Below are positions 25,561-30,774 of a stretch of DNA of 64,000 bases, piece after piece (within the stretch, counting starts at the first letter, position 1; every line of letters begins with the position of its first letter). Origin of the DNA: a phage; the NCBI GenBank assembly GCA_019234695.1, contig GCA_019234695.1_3937.1, one strand, 5' to 3'. Made by a program: the position numbers and the translations under genes. The notes below the pieces were generated by a model. The model did not search any database. It saw only the letters and a program-made list of their open reading frames with translations, and was not told the DNA's origin.

Positions 25561-25637
25561 ATCTCTGTTTAGCTCAGCTTGGTAGAGCGTTCCGTTTGGG
25601 GCGGTAAGGCCGGAGGTTCAAGTCCTCCAACAGAGAC
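25561..25637 (+). tRNA. tRNA-Pro (anticodon TGG)
   Basis: manual cloverleaf; acceptor CTCTGTT/AACAGAG, T-arm GGAGG-TTCAAGT-CCTCC, CCA encoded. Confidence 0.65.
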
Positions 25638-25644
25638 CAAATTA

Positions 25645-25722
25645 ATGTTCCAGTGGACAAAATGGTAAAGTCACCACTCTTTCAAAGTGGATATTTGAGG
25701 GTTCAAATCCCTTCTGGAACGC
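25645..25722 (+). tRNA. tRNA-Glu (TTC)
   Basis: manual fold; anticodon arm CCACT-CTTTCAA-AGTGG; T-loop TTCAAAT. Confidence 0.7.
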
Positions 25723-25728
25723 CAGTTT

Positions 25729-25802
25729 TGACAGAAGACCAATTACAGCAAACTTAATCTTATTCATCTGAAGGTAAATCGGACAAAGAAGAGATTTGGT
25801 CT
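25729..25802 (+). ncRNA. structured hairpin RNA E1 (Y RNA-like family)
   Basis: 5-prime ACAGAAGACCAATTACAGCAA pairs with 3-prime TTGGTCTGG; between tRNA-Glu and tRNA-Met. Confidence 0.45.
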
Positions 25803-25813
25803 GGTCATTAAGA

Positions 25814-25890
25814 ATTGCGGGTATAGAGAAAGGGCGTCTCACATGTCTCATTAGCATGGTATCGGCAGGTTCGACTCCTGCACCCGCCTC
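25814..25890 (+). tRNA. tRNA-Met (CAT), atypical
   Basis: anticodon arm CATGT-CTCATTA-GCATG; 1-72 mismatch and 3-nt connector before D-stem. Confidence 0.5.
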
Positions 25891-25895
25891 CAAAT

Positions 25896-25960
25896 TTACA
25901 GAAGACCGTTTACAGCAATATTTATTAAATTTTTAGCGGAAAAATTGAAAGATACGGTCT
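25896..25960 (+). ncRNA. structured hairpin RNA E2 (Y RNA-like family)
   Basis: 5-prime ACAGAAGACCGTTTACAGCAA pairs with 3-prime ACGGTCTGG; compensatory change relative to E1/E3. Confidence 0.45.
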
Positions 25961-25973
25961 GGTAATACTAAAC

Positions 25974-26050
25974 ATGGTTAGGAAGCACATAAGGTATGTG
26001 CGGTCGCCTGTTAAGCGAATGGCACAGGGTTCGAATCCCTGACTAACCGC
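25974..26050 (+). tRNA. tRNA-Asn (GTT)
   Basis: anticodon loop CTGTTAA; D-stem GCAC/GTGC; T-arm CAGGG-TTCGAAT-CCCTG. Confidence 0.7.
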
Positions 26051-26119
26051 CAAATTTAGGAGAGAAGCGATTGCTCACCGATTTGTAAGGTTCAAGTCCT
26101 TAGCCTGAATAGAAATCAA

Positions 26120-26207
26120 ATGTGTCGTTATCCCGTAGATGGTAGCGGTGGGGACTGTAAATCCCTTGTCATTGAGACTCGGTAGGTTCGACTCCTACAC
26201 GGCACAC
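26120..26207 (+). tRNA. tRNA-Tyr (GTA), long variable arm
   Basis: 88 nt; anticodon loop CTGTAAA; T-arm GTAGG-TTCGACT-CCTAC. Confidence 0.7.
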
Positions 26208-26213
26208 CAAATA

Positions 26214-26291
26214 AAGGTTATGTAGTTTAATCTGGTTAAAATACTCCCCTGTCACGGGAGATGATGAGGGTTCAAATCCCTTCATAACCGC
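26214..26291 (+). tRNA. tRNA-Asp (GTC)
   Basis: perfect acceptor GGTTATG/CATAACC; anticodon arm CTCCC-CTGTCAC-GGGAG. Confidence 0.8.
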
Positions 26292-26352
26292 CAATTTTGA
26301 GAGGGCTATTTAGCCCCTCCCTTAAAGAGTTCTTACGAGTATTCTTTAAAGG

Positions 26353-26426
26353 AGCAGAAGACCAAATACAGCAAGCATGTATGAAATTTCAAACCAATTC
26401 AATTTTGAAAATTTAAAACTTGGTCT
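26353..26426 (+). ncRNA. structured hairpin RNA E3 (Y RNA-like family)
   Basis: 5-prime CAGAAGACCAAATACAGCAA pairs with 3-prime TTGGTCTGG. Confidence 0.45.
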
Positions 26427-26438
26427 GGCTCAACAAAT

Positions 26439-26571
26439 TTACAGAAGACCGTTTACAGCAAAACTTAAACAATCTATTTCTCCGGTAAAGAAAAGGCGAG
26501 GGTTCGATTCCTTCACTCGGCAGATGTCGAGTTGGTGTAATGGTAGCACTTAAGATGATAAACAACGGTCT
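26439..26571 (+). ncRNA. candidate Y RNA (YrlA-like) with permuted tRNA-like module
   Basis: terminal stem AGACCGTT / AACGGTCT; internal order T-arm (GAGGG-TTCGATT-CCTTC), ACTCGGC, 4-nt loop, GTCGAGT, D-arm (GTGTAATGGTAGCAC). Confidence 0.5.
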
Positions 26572-26573
26572 GG

Positions 26574-26716
26574 TAATTATCTTTGTAGATAAGTTATTAA
26601 GCTTACCTGTGAGTATGCGACCACAAAGGGTGAATGGGTAAATTCTAGATTTAAACCCAAAAAGGCACATCGCTACAGACCTTAAGCAAGTCTGGGTAGC
26701 TTATCTACAAAGATAA
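26574..26716 (+). ncRNA. long hairpin element with 18-bp terminal inverted repeat
   Basis: ATTATCTTTGTAGATAAG (26574-26591) is the exact reverse complement of CTTATCTACAAAGATAAT (26699-26716); ~107 nt interior with sub-hairpins. Confidence 0.4.
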
Positions 26717-26720
26717 TTTA

Positions 26721-26796
26721 ATGGAAGTGTAGCAGAATGGTGATGCGGCAGACTTTTAATCTGACAGGCGATGGGTTCGAATCCCTCCACTTCTAC
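26721..26796 (+). tRNA. tRNA-Lys (TTT), weak T-stem
   Basis: anticodon loop CTTTTAA; acceptor GGAAGTG/CACTTCT; T-stem has two mismatches. Confidence 0.55.
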
Positions 26797-26800
26797 CAAT

Positions 26801-26877
26801 ATGGTTCAGTCGCAGATAAGGTAATGCAAGGGTCTCATAAGCCCTATGAATGTGGGTTCGATTCCCATCTGAACCTC
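26801..26877 (+). tRNA. tRNA-Met (CAT)
   Basis: perfect acceptor GGTTCAG/CTGAACC; anticodon arm AGGGT-CTCATAA-GCCCT. Confidence 0.7.
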
Positions 26878-26878
26878 C

Positions 26879-26954
26879 AAGCTGGTATAGTTAAGAAGGT
26901 TATAACACTCCCCTGATAAGGGAACATCGGTGGTTCGATTCCACCTACCAGTAC
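26879..26954 (+). tRNA. tRNA-Ile (GAT)
   Basis: anticodon loop CTGATAA; T-arm GGTGG-TTCGATT-CCACC. Confidence 0.75.
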
Positions 26955-26969
26955 CAATTTCAATAAAGT

Positions 26970-26998
26970 TGTTGACATTGAGATGTGACTACTTTATA
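26970..26998 (+). promoter_or_regulatory. internal sigma70-like promoter within tRNA cluster
   Basis: TTGACA-17-TATAGT after tRNA-Ile; precedes ~200 nt tRNA-free structured segment. Confidence 0.55.
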
Positions 26999-27200
26999 GT
27001 AACCTTAGTTTTCGTTGCGTAGCGTCTATTTTGCAAATTTAAAATAAATGCAAACGACAATGTTTTTCTGGCAGTAGCTTGATAGGCTAAACACCAGTGA
27101 GGTCTTCCAATCCCTCATCAAAGAATTTGGCGTACTCGCCCACGGTATGATTAATAAGGTGGGCATCTTTAAGGGCTTTCTAAGAGAGTCTTTAAAGATA

Positions 27201-27277
27201 ATGCACCCTTAGTTCAATTGGATAGAGCAACGGTCTTCTAAATCGTTAGTTACAGGTTCGAATCCTGTAGGGTGTAC
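27201..27277 (+). tRNA. tRNA-Arg (TCT)
   Basis: anticodon arm ACGGT-CTTCTAA-ATCGT; T-arm ACAGG-TTCGAAT-CCTGT. Confidence 0.8.
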
Positions 27278-27419
27278 CAAATAGTTAGCAGATTACTTAG
27301 ACGGCCTTAGCGGGTCTTCCTGTAGGGAGGTGGTCTGTATCTCATGTTTTCCAGAACATGTAAATAATCTGAGAAGGAGCTTGACAGTGTTGAGATAACA
27401 GGGTAAGCTTCGAATTATA

Positions 27420-27502
27420 ATATGGGACGATGTTAAGACTCTAAGGCATGAGCAACGGCCTCCAAAACCGTTTCAAAGGGGTTCAACTCCTCCGTCCCAT
27501 GC
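27420..27502 (+). tRNA. tRNA-Trp (CCA)-like, atypical
   Basis: perfect acceptor ATGGGAC/GTCCCAT; anticodon loop CTCCAAA; ~7 extra nt between acceptor and D-arm. Confidence 0.45.
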
Positions 27503-27515
27503 CAAAGTCTTATTA

Positions 27516-27603
27516 GGGGTAGGTAGCGGCTAATGGTAGCCAAACTGTCTTGAAAACAGTTGCCACTGTAGAGATACGGTGAGGGTTCGACTCCTTTACT
27601 TAC
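27516..27603 (+). tRNA. tRNA-Ser (TGA), long variable arm
   Basis: anticodon arm ACTGT-CTTGAAA-ACAGT; 20-nt variable arm; CCA not encoded. Confidence 0.75.
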
Positions 27604-27757
27604 CGCCTAATAAGATTTACTCCGTCCATGCTTGTTCGCATTGTCGGTTTATCCCTCGTGTATTGTCGTACACTGTCAAAGCACCTAGTAGGTGTCACGG
27701 AGAAGAGATAATATCAAGCTCTCCAAAGGTTCTAGTCACCGGATTAAACAAGACTAT

Positions 27758-27780
27758 GCAAAGACCTATTTAGGTCTTTT
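27758..27780 (+). terminator. terminator-like hairpin inside tRNA cluster
   Basis: AGACCTA-TT-TAGGTCT followed by TTTTT. Confidence 0.45.
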
Positions 27781-27859
27781 TAGAGGGCTTCTAAGGTTAT
27801 TAGTCGCTTGTTGTGGAACCTTGTTGCTTAGGTTCTTAGAAGTTCTCTAAAAAGATTTA

Positions 27860-27937
27860 ATGGGAGATTGACGGTAATTGGTAAACCTACCATCCTTAGA
27901 AGTTGGTGTTTGAGGGTTCGAATCCCTTGTCTCCTAC
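27860..27937 (+). tRNA. tRNA with anticodon TAG (Leu by anticodon), short variable arm
   Basis: acceptor GGGAGAT/GTCTCCT; anticodon loop CTTAGAA; discriminator A; 5-nt variable region. Confidence 0.5.
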
Positions 27938-27944
27938 CAAATTA

Positions 27945-28020
27945 ATGCAGGTGTAGCAAAATGGTTATGCGGCTGACTCTTAATCAGTAAGACGATGGGT
28001 TCAATTCCCTCCACCTGTAC
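27945..28020 (+). tRNA. tRNA-Lys (CTT), weak T-stem
   Basis: paralog of 26721..26796; anticodon arm GCTGA-CTCTTAA-TCAGT. Confidence 0.55.
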
Positions 28021-28026
28021 CAAACA

Positions 28027-28102
28027 TTGGGGATGTAGTTTACATGGTTAAAACATAAGTTTTGCAAACTTAAGTACAGGGTTCAATTCCCTGCTTCTCC
28101 AC
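28027..28102 (+). tRNA. tRNA-Ala (TGC)
   Basis: anticodon arm TAAGT-TTTGCAA-ACTTA; T-arm CAGGG-TTCAATT-CCCTG. Confidence 0.7.
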
Positions 28103-28108
28103 CAATTA

Positions 28109-28183
28109 GTGCATCCATAGTTTAAACGGGAAAATTACAGTCTTCCAAACTGAGGTTGAGGGTTCGATTCCCTCTGGATGCTC
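28109..28183 (+). tRNA. tRNA-Gly (TCC)
   Basis: perfect acceptor GCATCCA/TGGATGC; anticodon loop CTTCCAA; 75 nt. Confidence 0.7.
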
Positions 28184-28189
28184 CAAACA

Positions 28190-28266
28190 ATGCTGCTTTC
28201 GTATAATTGGCTATTACACATCCCTTGTAAGGATGGAAATGCAGGTTCGAGTCCTGTGAGCAGCAC
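28190..28266 (+). tRNA. tRNA-Thr (TGT)
   Basis: anticodon arm CATCC-CTTGTAA-GGATG; T-arm GCAGG-TTCGAGT-CCTGT. Confidence 0.8.
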
Positions 28267-28269
28267 CAA

Positions 28270-28357
28270 TTCAGAGGTCAAGTGAAAGACCGCTTTGAGT
28301 CAACTGAAGACCGTAACAAATACCACGGAGTTGAGTTAGCGGCACAACTTCAGACCT
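28270..28357 (+). ncRNA. structured hairpin RNA E5 (divergent member)
   Basis: outer stem CAGAGGTC / GACCTCTG; internal CTGAAGACCGTAACAAA resembles the E-family 5-prime motif. Confidence 0.35.
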
Positions 28358-28362
28358 CTTTC

Positions 28363-28437
28363 ATACTCGCTTAGTTTATATGGTAAAACATCACCCTTAC
28401 AAGATGAAGAAAAAGGTTCAAGTCCTTTAGTGAGTAC
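28363..28437 (+). tRNA. tRNA-Val (TAC)
   Basis: anticodon loop CTTACAA; T-arm AAAGG-TTCAAGT-CCTTT. Confidence 0.7.
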
Positions 28438-28438
28438 C

Positions 28439-28516
28439 ATGTTCCAGTATCCCAATTGGCAGAGGATGCAAGCTCAAACCTTGTATTAGTGACGGTTCGA
28501 ATCCGTCTTGGAACAC
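28439..28516 (+). tRNA. tRNA with anticodon CAA (Leu by anticodon), short variable arm
   Basis: acceptor GTTCCAG/TTGGAAC; anticodon arm GCAAG-CTCAAAC-CTTGT; discriminator A. Confidence 0.5.
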
Positions 28517-28521
28517 CAATT

Positions 28522-28597
28522 TTGCAGGATTAGTTCAAATGGAAAGAGCAACAGTCTACGAAGCTGTTAATAGGGGTTCGAATCCCTTATCCTGCGC
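28522..28597 (+). tRNA. tRNA-Arg (ACG)
   Basis: perfect acceptor GCAGGAT/ATCCTGC; anticodon loop CTACGAA. Confidence 0.8.
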
Positions 28598-28616
28598 CAG
28601 ATAAAAAGGTGATACT

Positions 28617-28859
28617 ATGCAAACATTAACAGTAGTTGAACATGAAAACTGTGAGAGTATTGAGTTTGTCAGGGTCATTGGTGTTGAACACCACATTTTC
28701 TTAAAAGTGGGATACTTATGCGACCCCGCTAGAGTAGAAAGATTTATACGTGATTGTTTTGGTGGTAGACATCTGAAGAGTGTTATTTTTGAGACAGTTT
28801 TACCAGAAGGTTTAGAAACGAATAATAACATTTACCTCCTTACGAGGATTAGACAATGA
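28617..28859 (+). CDS. hypothetical small protein embedded in tRNA cluster
   Basis: ORF track; AAAGGTG RBS-like upstream. Confidence 0.4.
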   Translation: MQTLTVVEHENCESIEFVRVIGVEHHIFLKVGYLCDPARVERFIRDCFGGRHLKSVIFETVLPEGLETNNNIYLLTRIRQ

Positions 28860-29413
28860 GATACTTAAAGTATGCTTCATGGATTTTCTTAGCTTTGTTA
28901 GAGCCATTTGCAGCAATCTTAGCAGTTATCTTAGCACCTTTTGTAGTTCCATTCTACAGTGAGAAGAAAGGACACTTACCTTTCGGGTTCAGATGGATGG
29001 AGACATATGACAACCCAATTGATGGTGATGAAGGTCACGTTAAAAGATGGGCTAATATTAGATGGATTGGTAAACTAGGTGTCTACATGCAAAGAGTCGG
29101 ATGGCTCTGGAGAAACAAAGCTTATAACTTCTCTTACCATGTATTAGGAAGAGATGTAAGAGATGTTACTAAGTGGAAAGGTAATATCAACGTAAGTTCT
29201 AACCCTGAAGATAATCAGACTGGTTATCTCCTAATGTGGAACAGTAATGCTTGGGGATTATTCGCTTTTATCCCATCAATTAAAGTCTTCGGTAAACAGT
29301 TTTACTGGAGAATTTATGTTGGATGGAAACTTAAAAGTGTTGTCCCAGAAGAAAGAGCATTCTCAAGGGAAAGAGTTATGTTGGCATTCTTTATTCATCC
29401 ACTGAGAAAGTAA
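28856..29413 (+). CDS. hypothetical membrane protein embedded in tRNA cluster
   Basis: ORF track; hydrophobic N-terminus; 4-nt start/stop overlap with upstream ORF. Confidence 0.5.
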   Translation: MRYLKYASWIFLALLEPFAAILAVILAPFVVPFYSEKKGHLPFGFRWMETYDNPIDGDEGHVKRWANIRWIGKLGVYMQRVGWLWRNKAYNFSYHVLGRDVRDVTKWKGNINVSSNPEDNQTGYLLMWNSNAWGLFAFIPSIKVFGKQFYWRIYVGWKLKSVVPEERAFSRERVMLAFFIHPLRK

Positions 29414-29420
29414 AGATTTA

Positions 29421-29496
29421 AAGGGGATTAGTTTACAAGGTTAAAACCTCGGTCTTTGAAATCGAAGAAGTTGGTTCAATTCCAACATCCCCCGCC
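29421..29496 (+). tRNA. tRNA-Gln (TTG)
   Basis: anticodon arm TCGGT-CTTTGAA-ATCGA; T-arm GTTGG-TTCAATT-CCAAC; weak 1-72 pair. Confidence 0.65.
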
Positions 29497-29498
29497 AA

Positions 29499-29577
29499 TG
29501 CTCCATTACTCCAATTGGCAGAGAGGCCAGACTTAAAATCTGTGTTATGTATCGGTTCGAATCCGATATGGAGTACC
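29499..29577 (+). tRNA. tRNA with anticodon TAA (Leu by anticodon), short variable arm
   Basis: acceptor GCTCCAT/ATGGAGT; anticodon loop CTTAAAA; 7-nt variable region; discriminator A. Confidence 0.5.
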
Positions 29578-29582
29578 AAATT

Positions 29583-29658
29583 TAGCGGTATAGCATAACT
29601 GGCAATGCAGCAGTCTCTGAAGCTGTCCTATTAAGGTTCAAATCCTTATGCCGCTGCC
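29583..29658 (+). tRNA. tRNA-Gln (CTG)
   Basis: D-stem GCAT/ATGC; anticodon loop CTCTGAA; T-arm TAAGG-TTCAAAT-CCTTA. Confidence 0.6.
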
Positions 29659-29689
29659 ACTTCTAAGGATTCTTACGAGAGTCCTTAAA

Positions 29690-29765
29690 TGTGGCCTTAT
29701 CATAAATGGTAATGCCCCATGCTGTGAACATGGTCTATACGGGTTCAAATCCCGTAGGTCACCCC
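29690..29765 (+). tRNA. tRNA-His (GTG)
   Basis: perfect anticodon arm CCATG-CTGTGAA-CATGG; T-arm ACGGG-TTCAAAT-CCCGT. Confidence 0.75.
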
Positions 29766-29771
29766 AATTTA

Positions 29772-29847
29772 TAGTCCAAGTAGCTTATATGGTTAAAGCG
29801 CGTGTCTGAAAAACATGAGAAGAGGGTTCAAATCCCACTGGACTACC
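29772..29847 (+). tRNA. tRNA-Phe (GAA)
   Basis: anticodon loop CTGAAAA; D-stem GCTT/AAGC; acceptor register ambiguous by 1 nt. Confidence 0.65.
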
Positions 29848-29864
29848 AATTTCAAAGGTGCTTA

Positions 29865-30599
29865 ATGAAAGAGATGACAGAACAAGGTAAGGAGATTTTC
29901 AATCTCTTAAAAACCGGTAAAGGGTTTTCTAACCCCCTTATTACTGGTGCAGCAGTTCTCGGTGGAACCGTAGCTGCCTCTACATCACTTGTAAGCTCTA
30001 TTAGCTCTGTATCAGACCCTACAGTAAAGGATAAGCTTGTTGCTGCTGGACTTACAACAGTTCTGCTTAACAGCTTTACCACGAGTCTGACAAGCACTAC
30101 ATCAACTACCAAAACACTAACAGATTACGGTCAAAAGTCCATTGATGAGTTTTCATCACGTATGCAGGTAGCAAAAGGTTACTCTAATGTTATGGGTGCA
30201 GCAGGTGAACAAGTTGGCTGTACACCATTTAGTGGTATTATGGGTGTTGCTACAGAGTATGGTCAAAAAACTATTGATACGATTAACAGTGCACTAGATA
30301 GTGTTAATGGTGTGTTAAGTGACTTACAAGATGCTATTGACAAAGGTCTTGATACTATTTCTGATTTAGCTGAGCAAGCTGTTAGTAAGATTAATGAAGG
30401 TATTTCAAAAATTACAGCTTATGCAGATGAAGTTGTGCAGATGATTGAAGAAGAAGCTGCTCTTATTGCAGAGTACCTTAAAACGAATATCAATGGGTTC
30501 TTAGCAGGTATCTTACCAGACTGGTTTGATGATGCTTGTAAAACTGGTGTAATTGACACTATTGCAACACCAGAAATGAAGAACGCATTACAGAAATAA
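29865..30599 (+). CDS. hypothetical Ser/Thr/Ala-rich protein embedded in tRNA cluster
   Basis: ORF 29802..30599 trimmed to internal ATG at 29865 because upstream part overlaps tRNA-Phe. Confidence 0.5.
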   Translation: MKEMTEQGKEIFNLLKTGKGFSNPLITGAAVLGGTVAASTSLVSSISSVSDPTVKDKLVAAGLTTVLLNSFTTSLTSTTSTTKTLTDYGQKSIDEFSSRMQVAKGYSNVMGAAGEQVGCTPFSGIMGVATEYGQKTIDTINSALDSVNGVLSDLQDAIDKGLDTISDLAEQAVSKINEGISKITAYADEVVQMIEEEAALIAEYLKTNINGFLAGILPDWFDDACKTGVIDTIATPEMKNALQK

Positions 30600-30601
30600 A
30601 T

Positions 30602-30694
30602 GGAAGATTAACCCTAAAAGGTAAGGGAGCAGTTTGCTAAACTGCCAGTAGCTGAGAAATCGGTGTACCAGTTCAAGTCTGGTATCTTCCTCCA
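30602..30694 (+). tRNA. tRNA-Ser (GCT), long variable arm
   Basis: 93 nt; perfect acceptor GGAAGAT/ATCTTCC; perfect anticodon arm GCAGT-TTGCTAA-ACTGC. Confidence 0.8.
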
Positions 30695-30698
30695 ATTT

Positions 30699-30774
30699 GA
30701 ATCCGTGACAGAAACGGCTATGTGCCTGTCTGCAAAACAGGTTTATAAGGGTTCGAGTCCCTTCGGATTCTCCA
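30699..30774 (+). tRNA. tRNA-Cys (GCA)
   Basis: perfect acceptor GAATCCG/CGGATTC; perfect anticodon arm CCTGT-CTGCAAA-ACAGG. Confidence 0.8.

What the first reader, a model, noticed from the sequence alone, without database searches (positions are those of the whole stretch)
26970..27200. Internal promoter followed by ~200 nt tRNA-free structured segment
A strong TTGACA-17-TATAGT promoter right after tRNA-Ile is followed by ~200 nt with several hairpins (TTGCA..TGCAA, GAGG..CCTC, GCCCAC..GTGGGC) before tRNA-Arg at 27201. It contains no credible ORF. It may be a small RNA or a processed leader; T4's tRNA region is known to encode two small stable non-tRNA RNAs, so a counterpart is plausible.
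Basis: partly seen in the sequence, partly recalled or inferred. Interest (0 to 1): 0.4.

Follow-up and report, generated by a model that had tools for sequence, protein, structure and literature searches.

The report
Phage RNA mimicking and targeting tmRNA
The ~200-nt gap in this Felix O1-like phage's tRNA cluster encodes a conserved small RNA that carries a tmRNA-style peptide-tag template but no tRNA-like part, and whose 5' end is antisense to the host's own tmRNA, suggesting that the phage blocks or re-programmes the host's ribosome-rescue tagging system.

Summary
The window is a Felixounavirus tRNA cluster. The promoter (26972-27000) and the structured ~196-nt segment (about 27006-27202) are real. 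The segment is neither a spacer nor a T4 rnaC/rnaD counterpart.

It contains a start-codon-less reading frame, GCA AAC GAC AAT GTT TTT CTG GCA GTA GCT TGA (ANDNVFLAVA*; compare E. coli ssrA ANDENYALAA). The resume-codon context is tmRNA-like. The stop codon sits in a helix-5-like loop, followed by a covarying hairpin and pseudoknot.

Homologues occur in about 600 phage records from unrelated families, and in E. coli prophages and phage-plasmids, almost always beside tRNA genes. There are 25 nucleotide versions encoding 16 peptides, with excess synonymous change in the tag frame.

No tRNA-like domain or SmpB gene was found in the window. ARAGORN and Rfam do not call it a tmRNA.

The 5' leader aligns antisense to host ssrA nt ~81-106. 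An Alteromonas-phage-like relative carries the change predicted from Alteromonas ssrA (ANDETYALAA), which I predicted first and then confirmed.

Best reading (inferred): the RNA docks on host tmRNA and substitutes, or blocks, its tag template. I found no prior description.

The parts
26972..27000 (+). Sigma-70-type promoter: TTGACA, 17 nt, TATAGT. Predicted start at about 27006-27008.
   Evidence: 11/12, best in the region. Promoters sit at the same distance from the conserved 5' motif in Pistou, swi2, BUCT610 and pIS4-A and in L348. The start site is inferred, not mapped.
27006..27032 (+). Leader, antisense to host tmRNA (ssrA nt 81-106: the A-rich stretch before the resume codon, the resume codon, and tag codons 1-6). 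The core UAGUUUUCGU (27006-27015) is the exact complement of ssrA ACGAAAACUA.
   Evidence: RNAduplex gives -27.3 kcal/mol at ssrA nt 76-107 (14/1000 and 1/200 shuffles as good). Local alignment to the reverse complement of ssrA scores 28 vs a shuffle maximum of 25. Pairing with the RNA's own tag region is much weaker. The leader of the Alteromonas-type relative matches Alteromonas ssrA instead.
27027..27046 (+). Hairpin UAUUUU / AAAAUA with an 8-nt loop, in the position of tmRNA pseudoknot 1. Its 5' arm is also part of the antisense leader.
   Evidence: Sequence reading and the fold. Other lineages have a different hairpin (CUUUGCGG...CCACAAAG) at the same place. Covariation was not formally tested.
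27044..27049 (+). AUAAAU upstream context of the resume codon. The U and A at -5/-4 match E. coli AUAGUC.
   Evidence: Rfam tmRNA and permuted-tmRNA models align AAAAUAAAUGCAAACGACAA to their consensus at maximal posterior probability. The columns are invariant in A1.
27050..27082 (+). Tag reading frame without a start codon: GCA AAC GAC AAT GTT TTT CTG GCA GTA GCT TGA = ANDNVFLAVA*.
   Evidence: 25 nucleotide versions encode 16 peptides. Synonymous differences are 544/2487 in this frame, 11/2420 in frame 1 and 177/2443 in frame 2. TAA, TAG and TGA are all used at the same codon, and L079 has an in-frame 3-nt insertion.
27068..27097 (+). Helix-5-like stem: outer CUGG/CCAG and inner UAGCU/GGCUA, with the stop codon UGA (27080-27082) in the loop.
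   Evidence: outer helix 94.9% paired, and pair 32:59 switches G-C (14 sequences) to A-U (10 sequences). The inner helix is 77% paired, partly because the alignment is out of register.
27098..27130 (+). Hairpin UGAGG/CCUCA (27098-27102 / 27113-27117). Its loop CCAA (27107-27110) pairs with UUGG (27127-27130), forming an H-type pseudoknot in the position of tmRNA PK2.
   Evidence: the stem is 100% paired with 3 of 5 pairs changed on both sides. Three of the 4 pseudoknot pairs are changed on both sides (CCAA/UUGG, CCGA/UCGG, CCAG/CUGG, CUCCA/UGGAG, CUAG/CUAG, GUCG/CGAC). The covariation score for the whole structure is 0.429 vs 0.187 in shuffles (0/500) and at most 0.128 when the partners are slid.
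27138..27164 (+). Hairpin GCCCAC/GUGGGC with a conserved loop (G)GUAUGAUUAAUAAG.
   Evidence: Relatives keep the loop core UGAUUAAUAA on quite different stems (GGCGGGAG/CUCCCGCC, GCCCUGA/UCAGGGC, GCCCCGU/ACGGGGC, GCUUCCA/UGGAAGC). No partner for the loop was found.
27165..27199 (+). 16-bp terminal hairpin, immediately before tRNA-Arg. In other Felixounaviruses the same hairpin holds an insert of about 90 nt.
   Evidence: Fold. Two-piece matches that are about 90 bp longer. L038 sequence. Similar hairpins lie at 26321-26353 and 26579-26714. A role in processing is inferred.
27203..27279 (+). tRNA-Arg(UCU). RNase P cleavage at its 5' end would create the 3' end of the small RNA (27202).
   Evidence: The processing step follows from established tRNA-operon maturation and was not tested.

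Best explanation
The segment is a gene for a roughly 196-nt small RNA (about 27006-27202). It is transcribed from its own promoter together with the downstream tRNAs and released at its 3' end by RNase P cleavage of tRNA-Arg. The RNA has two parts.

(1) The body is homologous to the mRNA-like half of tmRNA. It has a hairpin in place of PK1, an AUAAAU-GCA resume context, a 10-codon tag frame (ANDNVFLAVA), a stop codon in a helix-5-like loop, a PK2-like pseudoknot and a further hairpin. It has no tRNA-like domain.

(2) The 5' leader is antisense to the host's tmRNA, from just before the resume codon through tag codon 6.

Proposed mechanism (inferred):
- The exposed core UAGUUUUCGU nucleates on host ssrA codons 3-6.
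- Pairing then extends over the host resume codon and its upstream A-rich stretch. The same leader segment otherwise pairs with the phage RNA's own upstream stretch (27041-46).
- This hides the host tag template and frees the phage one.
- The host's alanyl-tmRNA-SmpB then carries a phage-encoded template, as a non-covalent two-piece tmRNA. Rescued proteins would receive the phage tag instead of ANDENYALAA.

What is shown: conservation, structure, peptide-level selection on the tag, absence of a tRNA-like domain in the window, and host-specific antisense complementarity. What is inferred: transcript ends, pairing in vivo, and template substitution.
For: Identity of the phage.

Conservation in about 600 phage records across Ounavirinae, Ackermannviridae, Schitoviridae and siphoviruses. 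It is also in 329 of 5426 E. coli genomes, in lambdoid prophages and phage-plasmids, and in about 70 IMG/VR contigs. It is almost always next to tRNA genes.

Strand-specific fold. Covariation including the pseudoknot.

Tag frame: synonymous excess, all three stop codons used, and an in-frame indel.

tmRNA homology: Rfam alignments of the resume region. The family model R1 finds the MLD of E. coli and Alteromonas ssrA (21.5 and 20.4 bits, E = 0.03-0.05) and nothing else outside the family.

No tRNA-like domain or SmpB in the window.

Antisense leader:
- Duplex energies at the same ssrA site in eight enteric-phage lineages, plus L079 against Alteromonas ssrA, with 0-2/200 shuffles as good.
- The leader pairs better with host ssrA than with its own MLD in 11 of 11 lineages.
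- Alignment scores to the reverse complement of ssrA exceed all 300 shuffles, and cross-host pairs are not significant.
- Prospective test: the variant leader GUAAGUUUCG of the Alteromonas-phage-like contig L079 predicted host codons GAA ACU UAC. Alteromonas ssrA indeed reads GACGAAACUUAC, tag ANDETYALAA.
- E. coli, Salmonella and Klebsiella share an identical target sequence.
- No cis partner for the leader lies within 1.5 kb in L079.
Against: There are no expression data of any kind. The transcription start, 3' end, stability and translation are all inferred.

Only one independent host switch (Alteromonas) supports leader-host covariation. The host of L079 is assigned by similarity to phage P24 (88.5% identity over 35% of 4 kb), and the part of P24 that was fetched lacks the element.

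Three divergent leaders (L028, L035, L071; hosts unknown) are not significantly complementary to E. coli ssrA.

Part of the leader-host complementarity (the CUAUUUU / UUUGCGG blocks) could follow simply from self-pairing plus homology of the phage and host upstream regions. Only the core motif is free of this confound.

The core also faintly resembles the tmRNA D-loop motif (UAGGAUCGAC).

Whether a ribosome can resume on a template held only by base pairing to tmRNA is unknown.

Siphovirus and lambdoid versions carry tRNA-like modules 3' of the MLD, so some family members may have their own acceptor part and work differently.
Confidence: 0.45

Rival explanations
1. A pure anti-tmRNA. The RNA pairs with host ssrA only to inactivate it, by masking the resume codon or by triggering RNase III cleavage. 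The tag-like frame is a relic of its origin from a tmRNA gene, or serves only as a mimic that binds S1 or SmpB.
For: The same antisense evidence as the main explanation. No tRNA-like domain. A TLD-only tmRNA (phage DS6A) is reported to inhibit tmRNA (PMC4131195), so phage interference with trans-translation has a precedent.
Against: The tag frame shows peptide-level purifying selection: synonymous excess, three different stop codons at the same codon, and an in-frame indel. The resume context and the stop-in-loop geometry are also kept. A relic would not retain these across so many lineages.
Confidence: 0.25
2. The coding piece of a multi-piece phage tmRNA. A separate phage-encoded tRNA-like acceptor RNA pairs with this RNA and delivers it to the ribosome, independently of host tmRNA.
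For: In siphovirus and lambdoid relatives, tRNA-like modules follow the MLD. Rfam tmRNA aligns L349 1766-1824 as a TLD-only match (20.2 bits), and a D-arm plus T-arm insert is present in L021. The window has orphan T-arms at 26086 and 26498, and tRNA fragments in permuted order. The permuted-tmRNA model scores 29.2 bits when it uses the tRNA-Ile 3' half.
Against: None of these candidates has G3-U70. None is complementary to the ends of the MLD RNA. The Felix and Alteromonas-type copies have no such module nearby. The 26465-26549 fragments look like remnants of a tandem tRNA duplication. This model does not explain why the leader tracks host ssrA.
Confidence: 0.12
3. A non-functional spacer, a processed leader, or a decaying remnant of a once-complete phage tmRNA.
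For: No recognised family at Rfam gathering score. No annotation in almost any record.
Against: At least 99% identity in 146 records, and conservation at 70-87% across unrelated virus families. Compensatory base changes. Selection on the tag. A dedicated promoter.
Confidence: 0.05
4. A homologue of the T4 stable RNAs rnaC/rnaD (species 1 and 2).
For: The same kind of location, inside a phage tRNA operon.
Against: Model R1 finds nothing in the T4 tRNA region. No tag frame was seen in rnaC or rnaD on inspection.
Confidence: 0.03
5. A small protein gene: either the 46-aa ORF on the minus strand (27026-27166) or the +1-frame AUG ORF (MQTTMFFWQ).
For: The minus-strand ORF coincides with the conserved block. 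A few records annotate hypothetical proteins there.
Against: The minus-strand ORF is not kept in other lineages; only 2 of 57 members resemble it. The +1 frame has 11 synonymous differences out of 2420. The structure is specific to the + strand.
Confidence: 0.02

Closest known systems
Bacterial tmRNA (SsrA; Rfam RF00023), mRNA-like domain
   Same: - Resume codon GCA with no start codon.
- A-rich upstream context with U-A at -5/-4.
- A 10-residue tag beginning AND/ANE and ending in hydrophobic residues plus Ala.
- A stop codon in the loop of a helix-5-like stem.
- A downstream pseudoknot.
- The family model hits the MLD of real ssrA genes.
   Different: - No acceptor stem, T-arm or CCA end.
- No G3-U70.
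- About 196 nt instead of about 360.
- PK1 is replaced by a hairpin, and PK3/PK4 are absent.
- Scores far below the Rfam gathering threshold (15.7 vs 47), and ARAGORN does not call it.
- Carries a leader antisense to host tmRNA.
Two-piece (circularly permuted) tmRNA of alpha-/beta-proteobacteria and cyanobacteria (RF04321, RF01849-51)
   Same: The template and the acceptor function lie on separate RNA chains held together by base pairing. The resume region is very similar (UAAAUGCAAACGAUAA).
   Different: There, both pieces come from one gene, and the coding piece carries the 5' acceptor strand. Here no acceptor piece is encoded, and the proposed partner is the host's complete tmRNA.
TLD-only tmRNA of mycobacteriophage DS6A, and CDS-less plastid tmRNAs (PMC4131195; PMC11915505)
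   Same: A reduced tmRNA derivative. The DS6A example is phage-encoded and is reported to interfere with host trans-translation.
   Different: It is the mirror image. Those keep the tRNA-like domain and lose the tag template; this one keeps the template and loses the tRNA-like domain.
Complete phage tmRNAs (mycobacteriophage Bxz1 group, Bacillus phage G)
   Same: Phage-encoded trans-translation RNAs, often found with large tRNA sets.
   Different: Those are full one-piece tmRNAs found by ARAGORN and Rfam. This family is missed by both tools, and I found no mention of it in the two tmRNA surveys I read.
Phage-encoded anti-sRNAs such as AgvB and AsxR of EHEC prophages (from my own knowledge; named)
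   Same: Phage RNAs that act by base pairing with a host non-coding RNA. They are encoded in the same late-region neighbourhood of lambdoid prophages.
   Different: Those are short Hfq-dependent sponges for regulatory sRNAs. Here the target would be tmRNA, and the RNA also carries a translatable template.
T4 rnaC / rnaD (species 1 and 2 RNAs)
   Same: Stable non-tRNA RNAs embedded in a phage tRNA operon and matured with the tRNAs.
   Different: No sequence or structure similarity was detected. The function of the T4 RNAs is unknown.

Membership tests
tmRNA (one-piece, RF00023) | Tag reading frame that starts at a resume codon without an initiation signal and ends at an in-frame stop | tested here: met
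   27050-27082. Frame-specific synonymous excess and conserved stop position. Rfam aligns the resume region at maximal posterior probability.
tmRNA (one-piece, RF00023) | Stop codon presented in or near the loop of helix 5, followed by pseudoknot(s) | tested here: met
   Helix 27068-27097 with UGA in the loop. Pseudoknot 27098-27130 with covariation. Only one pseudoknot is present, rather than PK2-PK4.
tmRNA (one-piece, RF00023) | tRNA-like domain: 5'/3' acceptor stem with G3-U70, T-arm and a CCA end | tested here: not met
   ARAGORN finds no tmRNA. No Rfam TLD hit in 64 kb at E<=10. The T-arm motif scan finds only orphan T-arms at 26086 and 26498, neither with G3-U70.
tmRNA (one-piece, RF00023) | Score at or above the Rfam gathering threshold | tested here: not met
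   15.7 bits vs 47.
tmRNA (one-piece, RF00023) | Works with SmpB | not testable with these tools
Host SmpB would have to be used.
Two-piece permuted tmRNA (RF04321) | Acceptor piece (T-arm, 3' acceptor strand, CCA) encoded upstream of a coding piece that begins with the complementary 5' acceptor strand | tested here: not met
   29.2 bits vs 47. The 'acceptor piece' that aligned is the 3' half of tRNA-Ile, and the RNA's 5' end is not complementary to it.
T4 rnaC/rnaD stable RNAs | Sequence or structure similarity to T4 species 1 or 2 RNA | tested here: not met
   R1 search of T4 69000-74000 gave no match at E<=10.
Trans-acting antisense RNA against a host RNA | Extended complementarity to a defined target, beyond chance, that tracks target sequence changes between hosts | tested here: met
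   The Alteromonas prediction was confirmed. Only one host switch was available.
Trans-acting antisense RNA against a host RNA | Physical pairing in vivo and an effect on the target | not testable with these tools
   Needs RIL-seq or CLASH, northern blots and genetics.
The new phage family itself (model R1) | Match to the covariance model built from 25 diverse members | tested here: met
   Window 27040-27137 scores 102.5 bits, but the window sequence is in the training set. The independent member L348 scores 74.8 bits.

The most novel reading that the evidence does not exclude
A phage-encoded 'template-swap' RNA. It hybridises to the host's charged tmRNA, masks the host tag template, and supplies its own. 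Host trans-translation then appends a phage-specified peptide (ANDNVFLAVA and relatives) to rescued proteins. In effect this is a two-piece tmRNA assembled in trans between virus and host. The device has spread horizontally among Felix O1-like, Vi1-like, N4-like, lambdoid and other enterobacterial phages and phage-plasmids.
Probability: 0.35. Interest if true: 0.95.

Novelty: new variant of a known kind. Interest (0 to 1): 0.85.

Why it matters
tmRNA-SmpB is the universal bacterial ribosome-rescue system. Until now, phages were known only to carry complete tmRNAs or, in one case, a tRNA-like-only fragment.

A widespread, unannotated RNA that keeps only the tag template and is antisense to host tmRNA would be new on two counts:
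- It would be the first viral RNA aimed directly at tmRNA.
- It would be a natural example of trans-translation template replacement.

It would also give a testable function for one of the 'mystery' non-tRNA RNAs in phage tRNA clusters. It would explain conserved blank regions in therapeutic and typing phages (Felix O1-like, Kuttervirus) and in Stx-type prophage late regions. And it would show that standard tmRNA finders (ARAGORN, Rfam) miss a whole class of tmRNA derivatives.

Tried and rejected
- Conventional ORFs on both strands. The minus-strand 46-aa ORF is not conserved. The +1-frame AUG ORF has almost no synonymous variation.
- Rfam at gathering score and ARAGORN: no family assignment.
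- T4 rnaC/rnaD homology: none.
- Downstream tRNA as the missing tRNA-like domain. Rejected because different tRNAs follow the element in different phages: Arg in the window, Leu in Pistou, and none nearby in others.
- tRNA-Ile as the acceptor piece of a permuted tmRNA. Rejected because there is no complementary 5' strand.
- The upstream fragments at 26465-26549 as the tRNA-like domain. Rejected as tRNA-Thr-like duplication remnants with no Ala identity.
- Self-pairing as the reason for leader conservation. Rejected because own tags vary where the leader is constant, and the energies favour host ssrA.
- Homology of the leader to the tmRNA D-loop motif. Considered, but it does not explain the host-specific change in L079.
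- IMG/VR scans for leaders predicted for ANDDNY-type (Pseudomonas-like) or further ANDETY-type hosts: no additional family members, so no second covariation event.
- Complementarity of the conserved loop UGAUUAAUAA to ssrA (a 7-nt match, UUAAUCA). This is within chance expectation and does not covary in L079.
- My recollection that Salmonella ssrA differs in the tag was checked and found wrong for the record examined.
- Literature searches found no description of this RNA.

Full report
WHAT THE WINDOW IS. The region matches Felix O1-like E. coli phages at 99.8% identity (Felixounavirus, e.g. Escherichia typing phage 1). It lies in a cluster of 26 tRNA genes on the + strand, at 25563-30774. The finding covers the gap between tRNA-Ile(GAU), which ends at 26956, and tRNA-Arg(UCU), which starts at 27203.

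CHECK OF THE OBSERVATION. The promoter TTGACA-17-TATAGT (26972-27000) is the best sigma-70 match in 25-31.5 kb (11/12). The + strand RNA 27007-27202 folds far better than shuffles (z = -4.1). The - strand does not (z = -1.65). No conventional ORF of 60 aa or more exists.

The third, TTGCA..TGCAA, is not conserved, and its 3' arm is in fact a codon of a reading frame described below.

CONSERVATION. A blastn search with the 246-nt gap found 596 phage records. Felixounaviruses match at 95-100%. The central 95-125 nt also match at 71-87% in unrelated viruses:
- Ackermannviridae (Kuttervirus, Taipeivirus, Ag3)
- Schitoviridae (Pollock, St11Ph5)
- several siphoviruses of about 47 kb (swi2, BUCT610, pIS4-A of Aeromonas)
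- a 60-kb Klebsiella phage
- Erwinia and Hafnia Ounavirinae

The region is nearly always unannotated. In most of the fetched loci it lies beside tRNA genes, usually on the same strand.

The element also occurs in 329 of 5426 complete E. coli genomes. In lambdoid prophages it sits between the Q antiterminator and the lysis genes. In plasmids of about 100-120 kb, which look like phage-plasmids, it sits next to a tRNA cluster. About 70 IMG/VR contigs carry it as well.

WHAT IT ENCODES. Reading the aligned copies shows a start-codon-less frame: GCA AAC GAC AAT GTT TTT CTG GCA GVA GCT TGA in outline, and in the window exactly GCA AAC GAC AAT GTT TTT CTG GCA GTA GCT TGA = ANDNVFLAVA* (27050-27082). 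It resembles the E. coli tmRNA tag ANDENYALAA.

Relatives encode ANEEMYLAVA, ANDNTFLAVA, ANDDVVLMAA, ANDEQFLAVA, ANDTQYLAVA, ANDDLMLAAA and others. In total, 25 nucleotide versions give 16 peptides.

Differences between versions are synonymous in 22% of cases in this frame, against 0.5% and 7% in the other two frames. Identical peptides are encoded by up to five different sequences. TAA, TAG and TGA all occur at the same codon. One member has an in-frame 3-nt insertion. The frame is therefore under selection as a peptide.

Rfam's tmRNA and permuted-tmRNA models align AAAAUAAAUGCAAACGACAA to their resume-codon consensus with maximal posterior probability. Total scores, however, are far below threshold (15.7 and 29.2 bits vs 47).

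STRUCTURE. On a 25-sequence alignment (A1), four helices were tested:
- a helix-5-like stem whose loop holds the stop codon
- its inner extension
- a 5-bp hairpin
- a pseudoknot between that hairpin's loop and a downstream tetranucleotide

Overall, 90.1% of cells are paired, against 77.0% in shuffles. There are 74 double-change cells against 23.6 expected. The covariation score is 0.429 against 0.187 (0/500 shuffles reach it) and at most 0.128 when the partners are slid by 1-3 columns.

The hairpin is 100% paired, with three covarying pairs. The pseudoknot has three of four pairs changed on both sides.

A further hairpin keeps the loop UGAUUAAUAA on quite different stems.

A covariance model of this core (R1) scores the window at 102.5 bits and an independent phage-plasmid copy at 74.8 bits. 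It also picks the mRNA-like region of genuine E. coli and Alteromonas ssrA (21.5 and 20.4 bits, E = 0.03-0.05). It finds nothing in the T4 tRNA region that contains rnaC and rnaD.

WHAT IS MISSING. ARAGORN calls no tmRNA in the window or in relatives. An E<=10 Rfam scan of all 64 kb shows no tmRNA tRNA-like domain. A T-arm motif scan finds only two orphan T-arms, neither with alanine identity. No SmpB-like ORF is present.

The RNA is therefore not a tmRNA by the family's defining feature. The large tmRNA surveys found only complete or TLD-only forms in phages (PMC4131195; PMC11915505). No paper in the searchable library describes this RNA.

THE LEADER. The most conserved part upstream of the tag is (N)RGUUUUCG(U), which follows the promoter directly. 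In the window, UAGUUUUCGU (27006-27015) is the exact complement of E. coli ssrA ACGAAAACUA (tag codons 3-6).

The best duplex between the 40-nt leader and the whole of ssrA lies at nt 76-107. It scores -27.3 kcal/mol, and 14/1000 and 1/200 shuffles do as well.

Eight enteric-phage lineages with different leader sequences all find the same site:
- The Ounavirinae leaders (window, Pistou) pair from ssrA nt 76-79, at -27 to -29 kcal/mol.
- The longer siphovirus, Ackermannviridae and Schitoviridae leaders pair from nt 54-56, at -40 to -50 kcal/mol.
- In each case 0-2/200 shuffles do as well.

At the sequence level, the leaders align to the reverse complement of ssrA nt 68/81-106 with scores above all 300 shuffles. 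In 11 of 11 lineages the leader pairs much better with host ssrA than with the RNA's own tag region. This fits the fact that own tags vary exactly where the leader is constant.

E. coli, Salmonella and Klebsiella ssrA are identical over the target.

A PROSPECTIVE TEST. One IMG/VR contig (L079) is related to Alteromonas phage P24. It has GUAAGUUUCG in place of GUAGUUUUCG. If the leader targets host tmRNA, Alteromonas ssrA should read ...GAA ACU UAC.

A genome scan with that prediction returned Alteromonas abrolhosensis among its hits. Its ARAGORN-confirmed ssrA reads GCAAACGACGAAACUUACGC, tag ANDETYALAA.

The L079 leader pairs with it at nt 80-110 with -31.8 kcal/mol (0/200 shuffles). By sequence alignment it is not significantly related to E. 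coli ssrA (score 16 vs shuffle mean 14), although RNAduplex still gives it -28.4 kcal/mol against E. coli (4/200). The window and Pistou leaders show nothing against Alteromonas ssrA.

L079's own tag, helix 5 and pseudoknot remain of the phage-family type. No cis partner for the leader exists within 1.5 kb. So it is the leader, not the whole element, that follows the host.

This is one event only. Scans for leaders predicted for other host types found no further members. Three divergent leaders of unknown host are not complementary to E. coli ssrA.

MECHANISM (INFERRED). The RNA combines an anti-ssrA leader with a surrogate mRNA-like domain.

The 3' part of the leader (CUAUUUU, 27026-27032) can pair with either of two sites:
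- the RNA's own A-rich stretch before its resume codon (27041-27046), or
- the homologous stretch of host ssrA.

The 5' core can pair only with the host. The simplest model is therefore toehold-type strand exchange. Docking on host tmRNA hides the host's resume codon and first six codons, and exposes the phage's. The host's alanyl-tmRNA-SmpB then delivers a phage-encoded template.

The tags keep N3, D/E4 and an aromatic or hydrophobic residue 7, and end in LAVA, LMAA or LAAA. From my own knowledge of SspB/ClpX recognition, this suggests a changed rather than an abolished fate for tagged proteins.

The main rival is a pure inhibitor of trans-translation. It explains the leader but not the selection on the peptide.

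A phage-encoded acceptor piece is a further rival. Siphovirus and lambdoid copies are followed by tRNA-like modules, one of which Rfam aligns as a TLD-only tmRNA at 20 bits. No such module accompanies the Felix or Alteromonas-type copies.

VERDICT. My confidence by claim:
- Identity as a tmRNA-MLD-like small RNA: about 0.9.
- Pairing with host tmRNA in vivo: about 0.65.
- Template substitution: about 0.35-0.45.

All functional steps need experiments.

Noticed in passing
window 26465-26549: The 3' two-thirds of a tRNA is present: anticodon arm UUUCU-CCGGUAA-AGAAA (GGU, Thr-like, with C33), T-arm GAGGG-UUCGAUU-CCUUC, and acceptor 3' strand ACUCGGC-A. After AGAU comes a tRNA 5' third (GUCGAGU-UG-GUGU-AAUGGUA-GCAC). 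Its acceptor strand is 7/7 complementary to the upstream 3' strand. This is either remnants of a tandem duplication or a circularly permuted tRNA gene.
   Followed up: partly
window 26321-26353, 26579-26714 and 27165-27199: A family of long AUCUUU.../...AAAGAU-type hairpins lies in the tRNA cluster. The one at 26579-26714 (AUCUUUGUAGAUAAG / CUUAUCUACAAAGAU) encloses a roughly 105-nt insert that contains AAACCCAAAAAGGCACAUCGC (compare E. coli tmRNA AAACCCAAAAGAGAUCGC). They look like processing stems or cassette sites.
   Followed up: no
window 27424-27498: A tRNA-like gene was missed by ARAGORN (Rfam tRNA-Sec model 23 bits). It has acceptor AUGGGAC/GUCCCAU, discriminator G and an encoded CCA. 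It also has T-loop UUCAACU and an enlarged anticodon loop containing CCA (Trp-like). Pistou has a normal tRNA-Trp in its cluster.
   Followed up: no
window 26053-26121: An orphan perfect T-arm (UAAGG-UUCAAGU-CCUUA, at 26086) lies between tRNA-Asn and tRNA-Tyr, with no detectable remainder of a tRNA.
   Followed up: no
L038 (IMG/VR Felixounavirus variant), about 120-280 nt after the tag start: The terminal hairpin carries a roughly 90-nt insert (…CCCUUAUGGGGCUUGGCUUAAAUGCA…). The same insert fills a module in lambdoid and siphovirus copies (L016, L349). tRNA-Arg is replaced by an odd D-arm-less tRNA-like gene with anticodon UCU, acceptor C1-G72 / G3-U70, discriminator A73 and an encoded CCA, which is an alanine-identity acceptor.
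   Followed up: no
L349 1369-1830; also L003, L016, L021, L025, L036: In siphovirus and lambdoid phages the element sits in an array of modules closed by CACAACAGGUAAGAGCAUU ... AGUGCUCUUUCCGUUGUGG helices, with interchangeable inserts. Some inserts are tRNA-like without an anticodon arm. The array is followed by a GUUGUGGUG...T-arm...CCACCACAAC(CCA) unit. In L349 that unit contains a CAUGUAG motif like the tmRNA 3' region, and Rfam aligns it as a TLD-only tmRNA (20.2 bits).
   Followed up: partly
L008 2582-2795 (Serratia phage IME250, same non-coding region as the element): A match to the prophage sRNA family STnc100 (RF02076) at 48.7 bits, just above its gathering score of 47.
   Followed up: no
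L015, L017, L026, L027, L089, L098 and other IMG/VR contigs: Genuine permuted (two-piece) tmRNA genes with tags such as ANDNFAPSGFALAA and ANENFALAA occur on viral contigs. L089 has two. They are either host flanks of prophages or phage-borne two-piece tmRNAs.
   Followed up: no
L350 1909-2047 (T4 rnaC): T4 species 1 RNA ends in a perfect T-arm (CCGGG-UUCGAAU-CCCGG) preceded by CUUAAUAACC, the same string as around the E. coli ssrA stop codons. It begins with AUCGAUUCGAGG, reminiscent of the tmRNA D-loop motif GGAUUCGAC. It may be worth testing as a tRNA-like or tmRNA-derived RNA.
   Followed up: no
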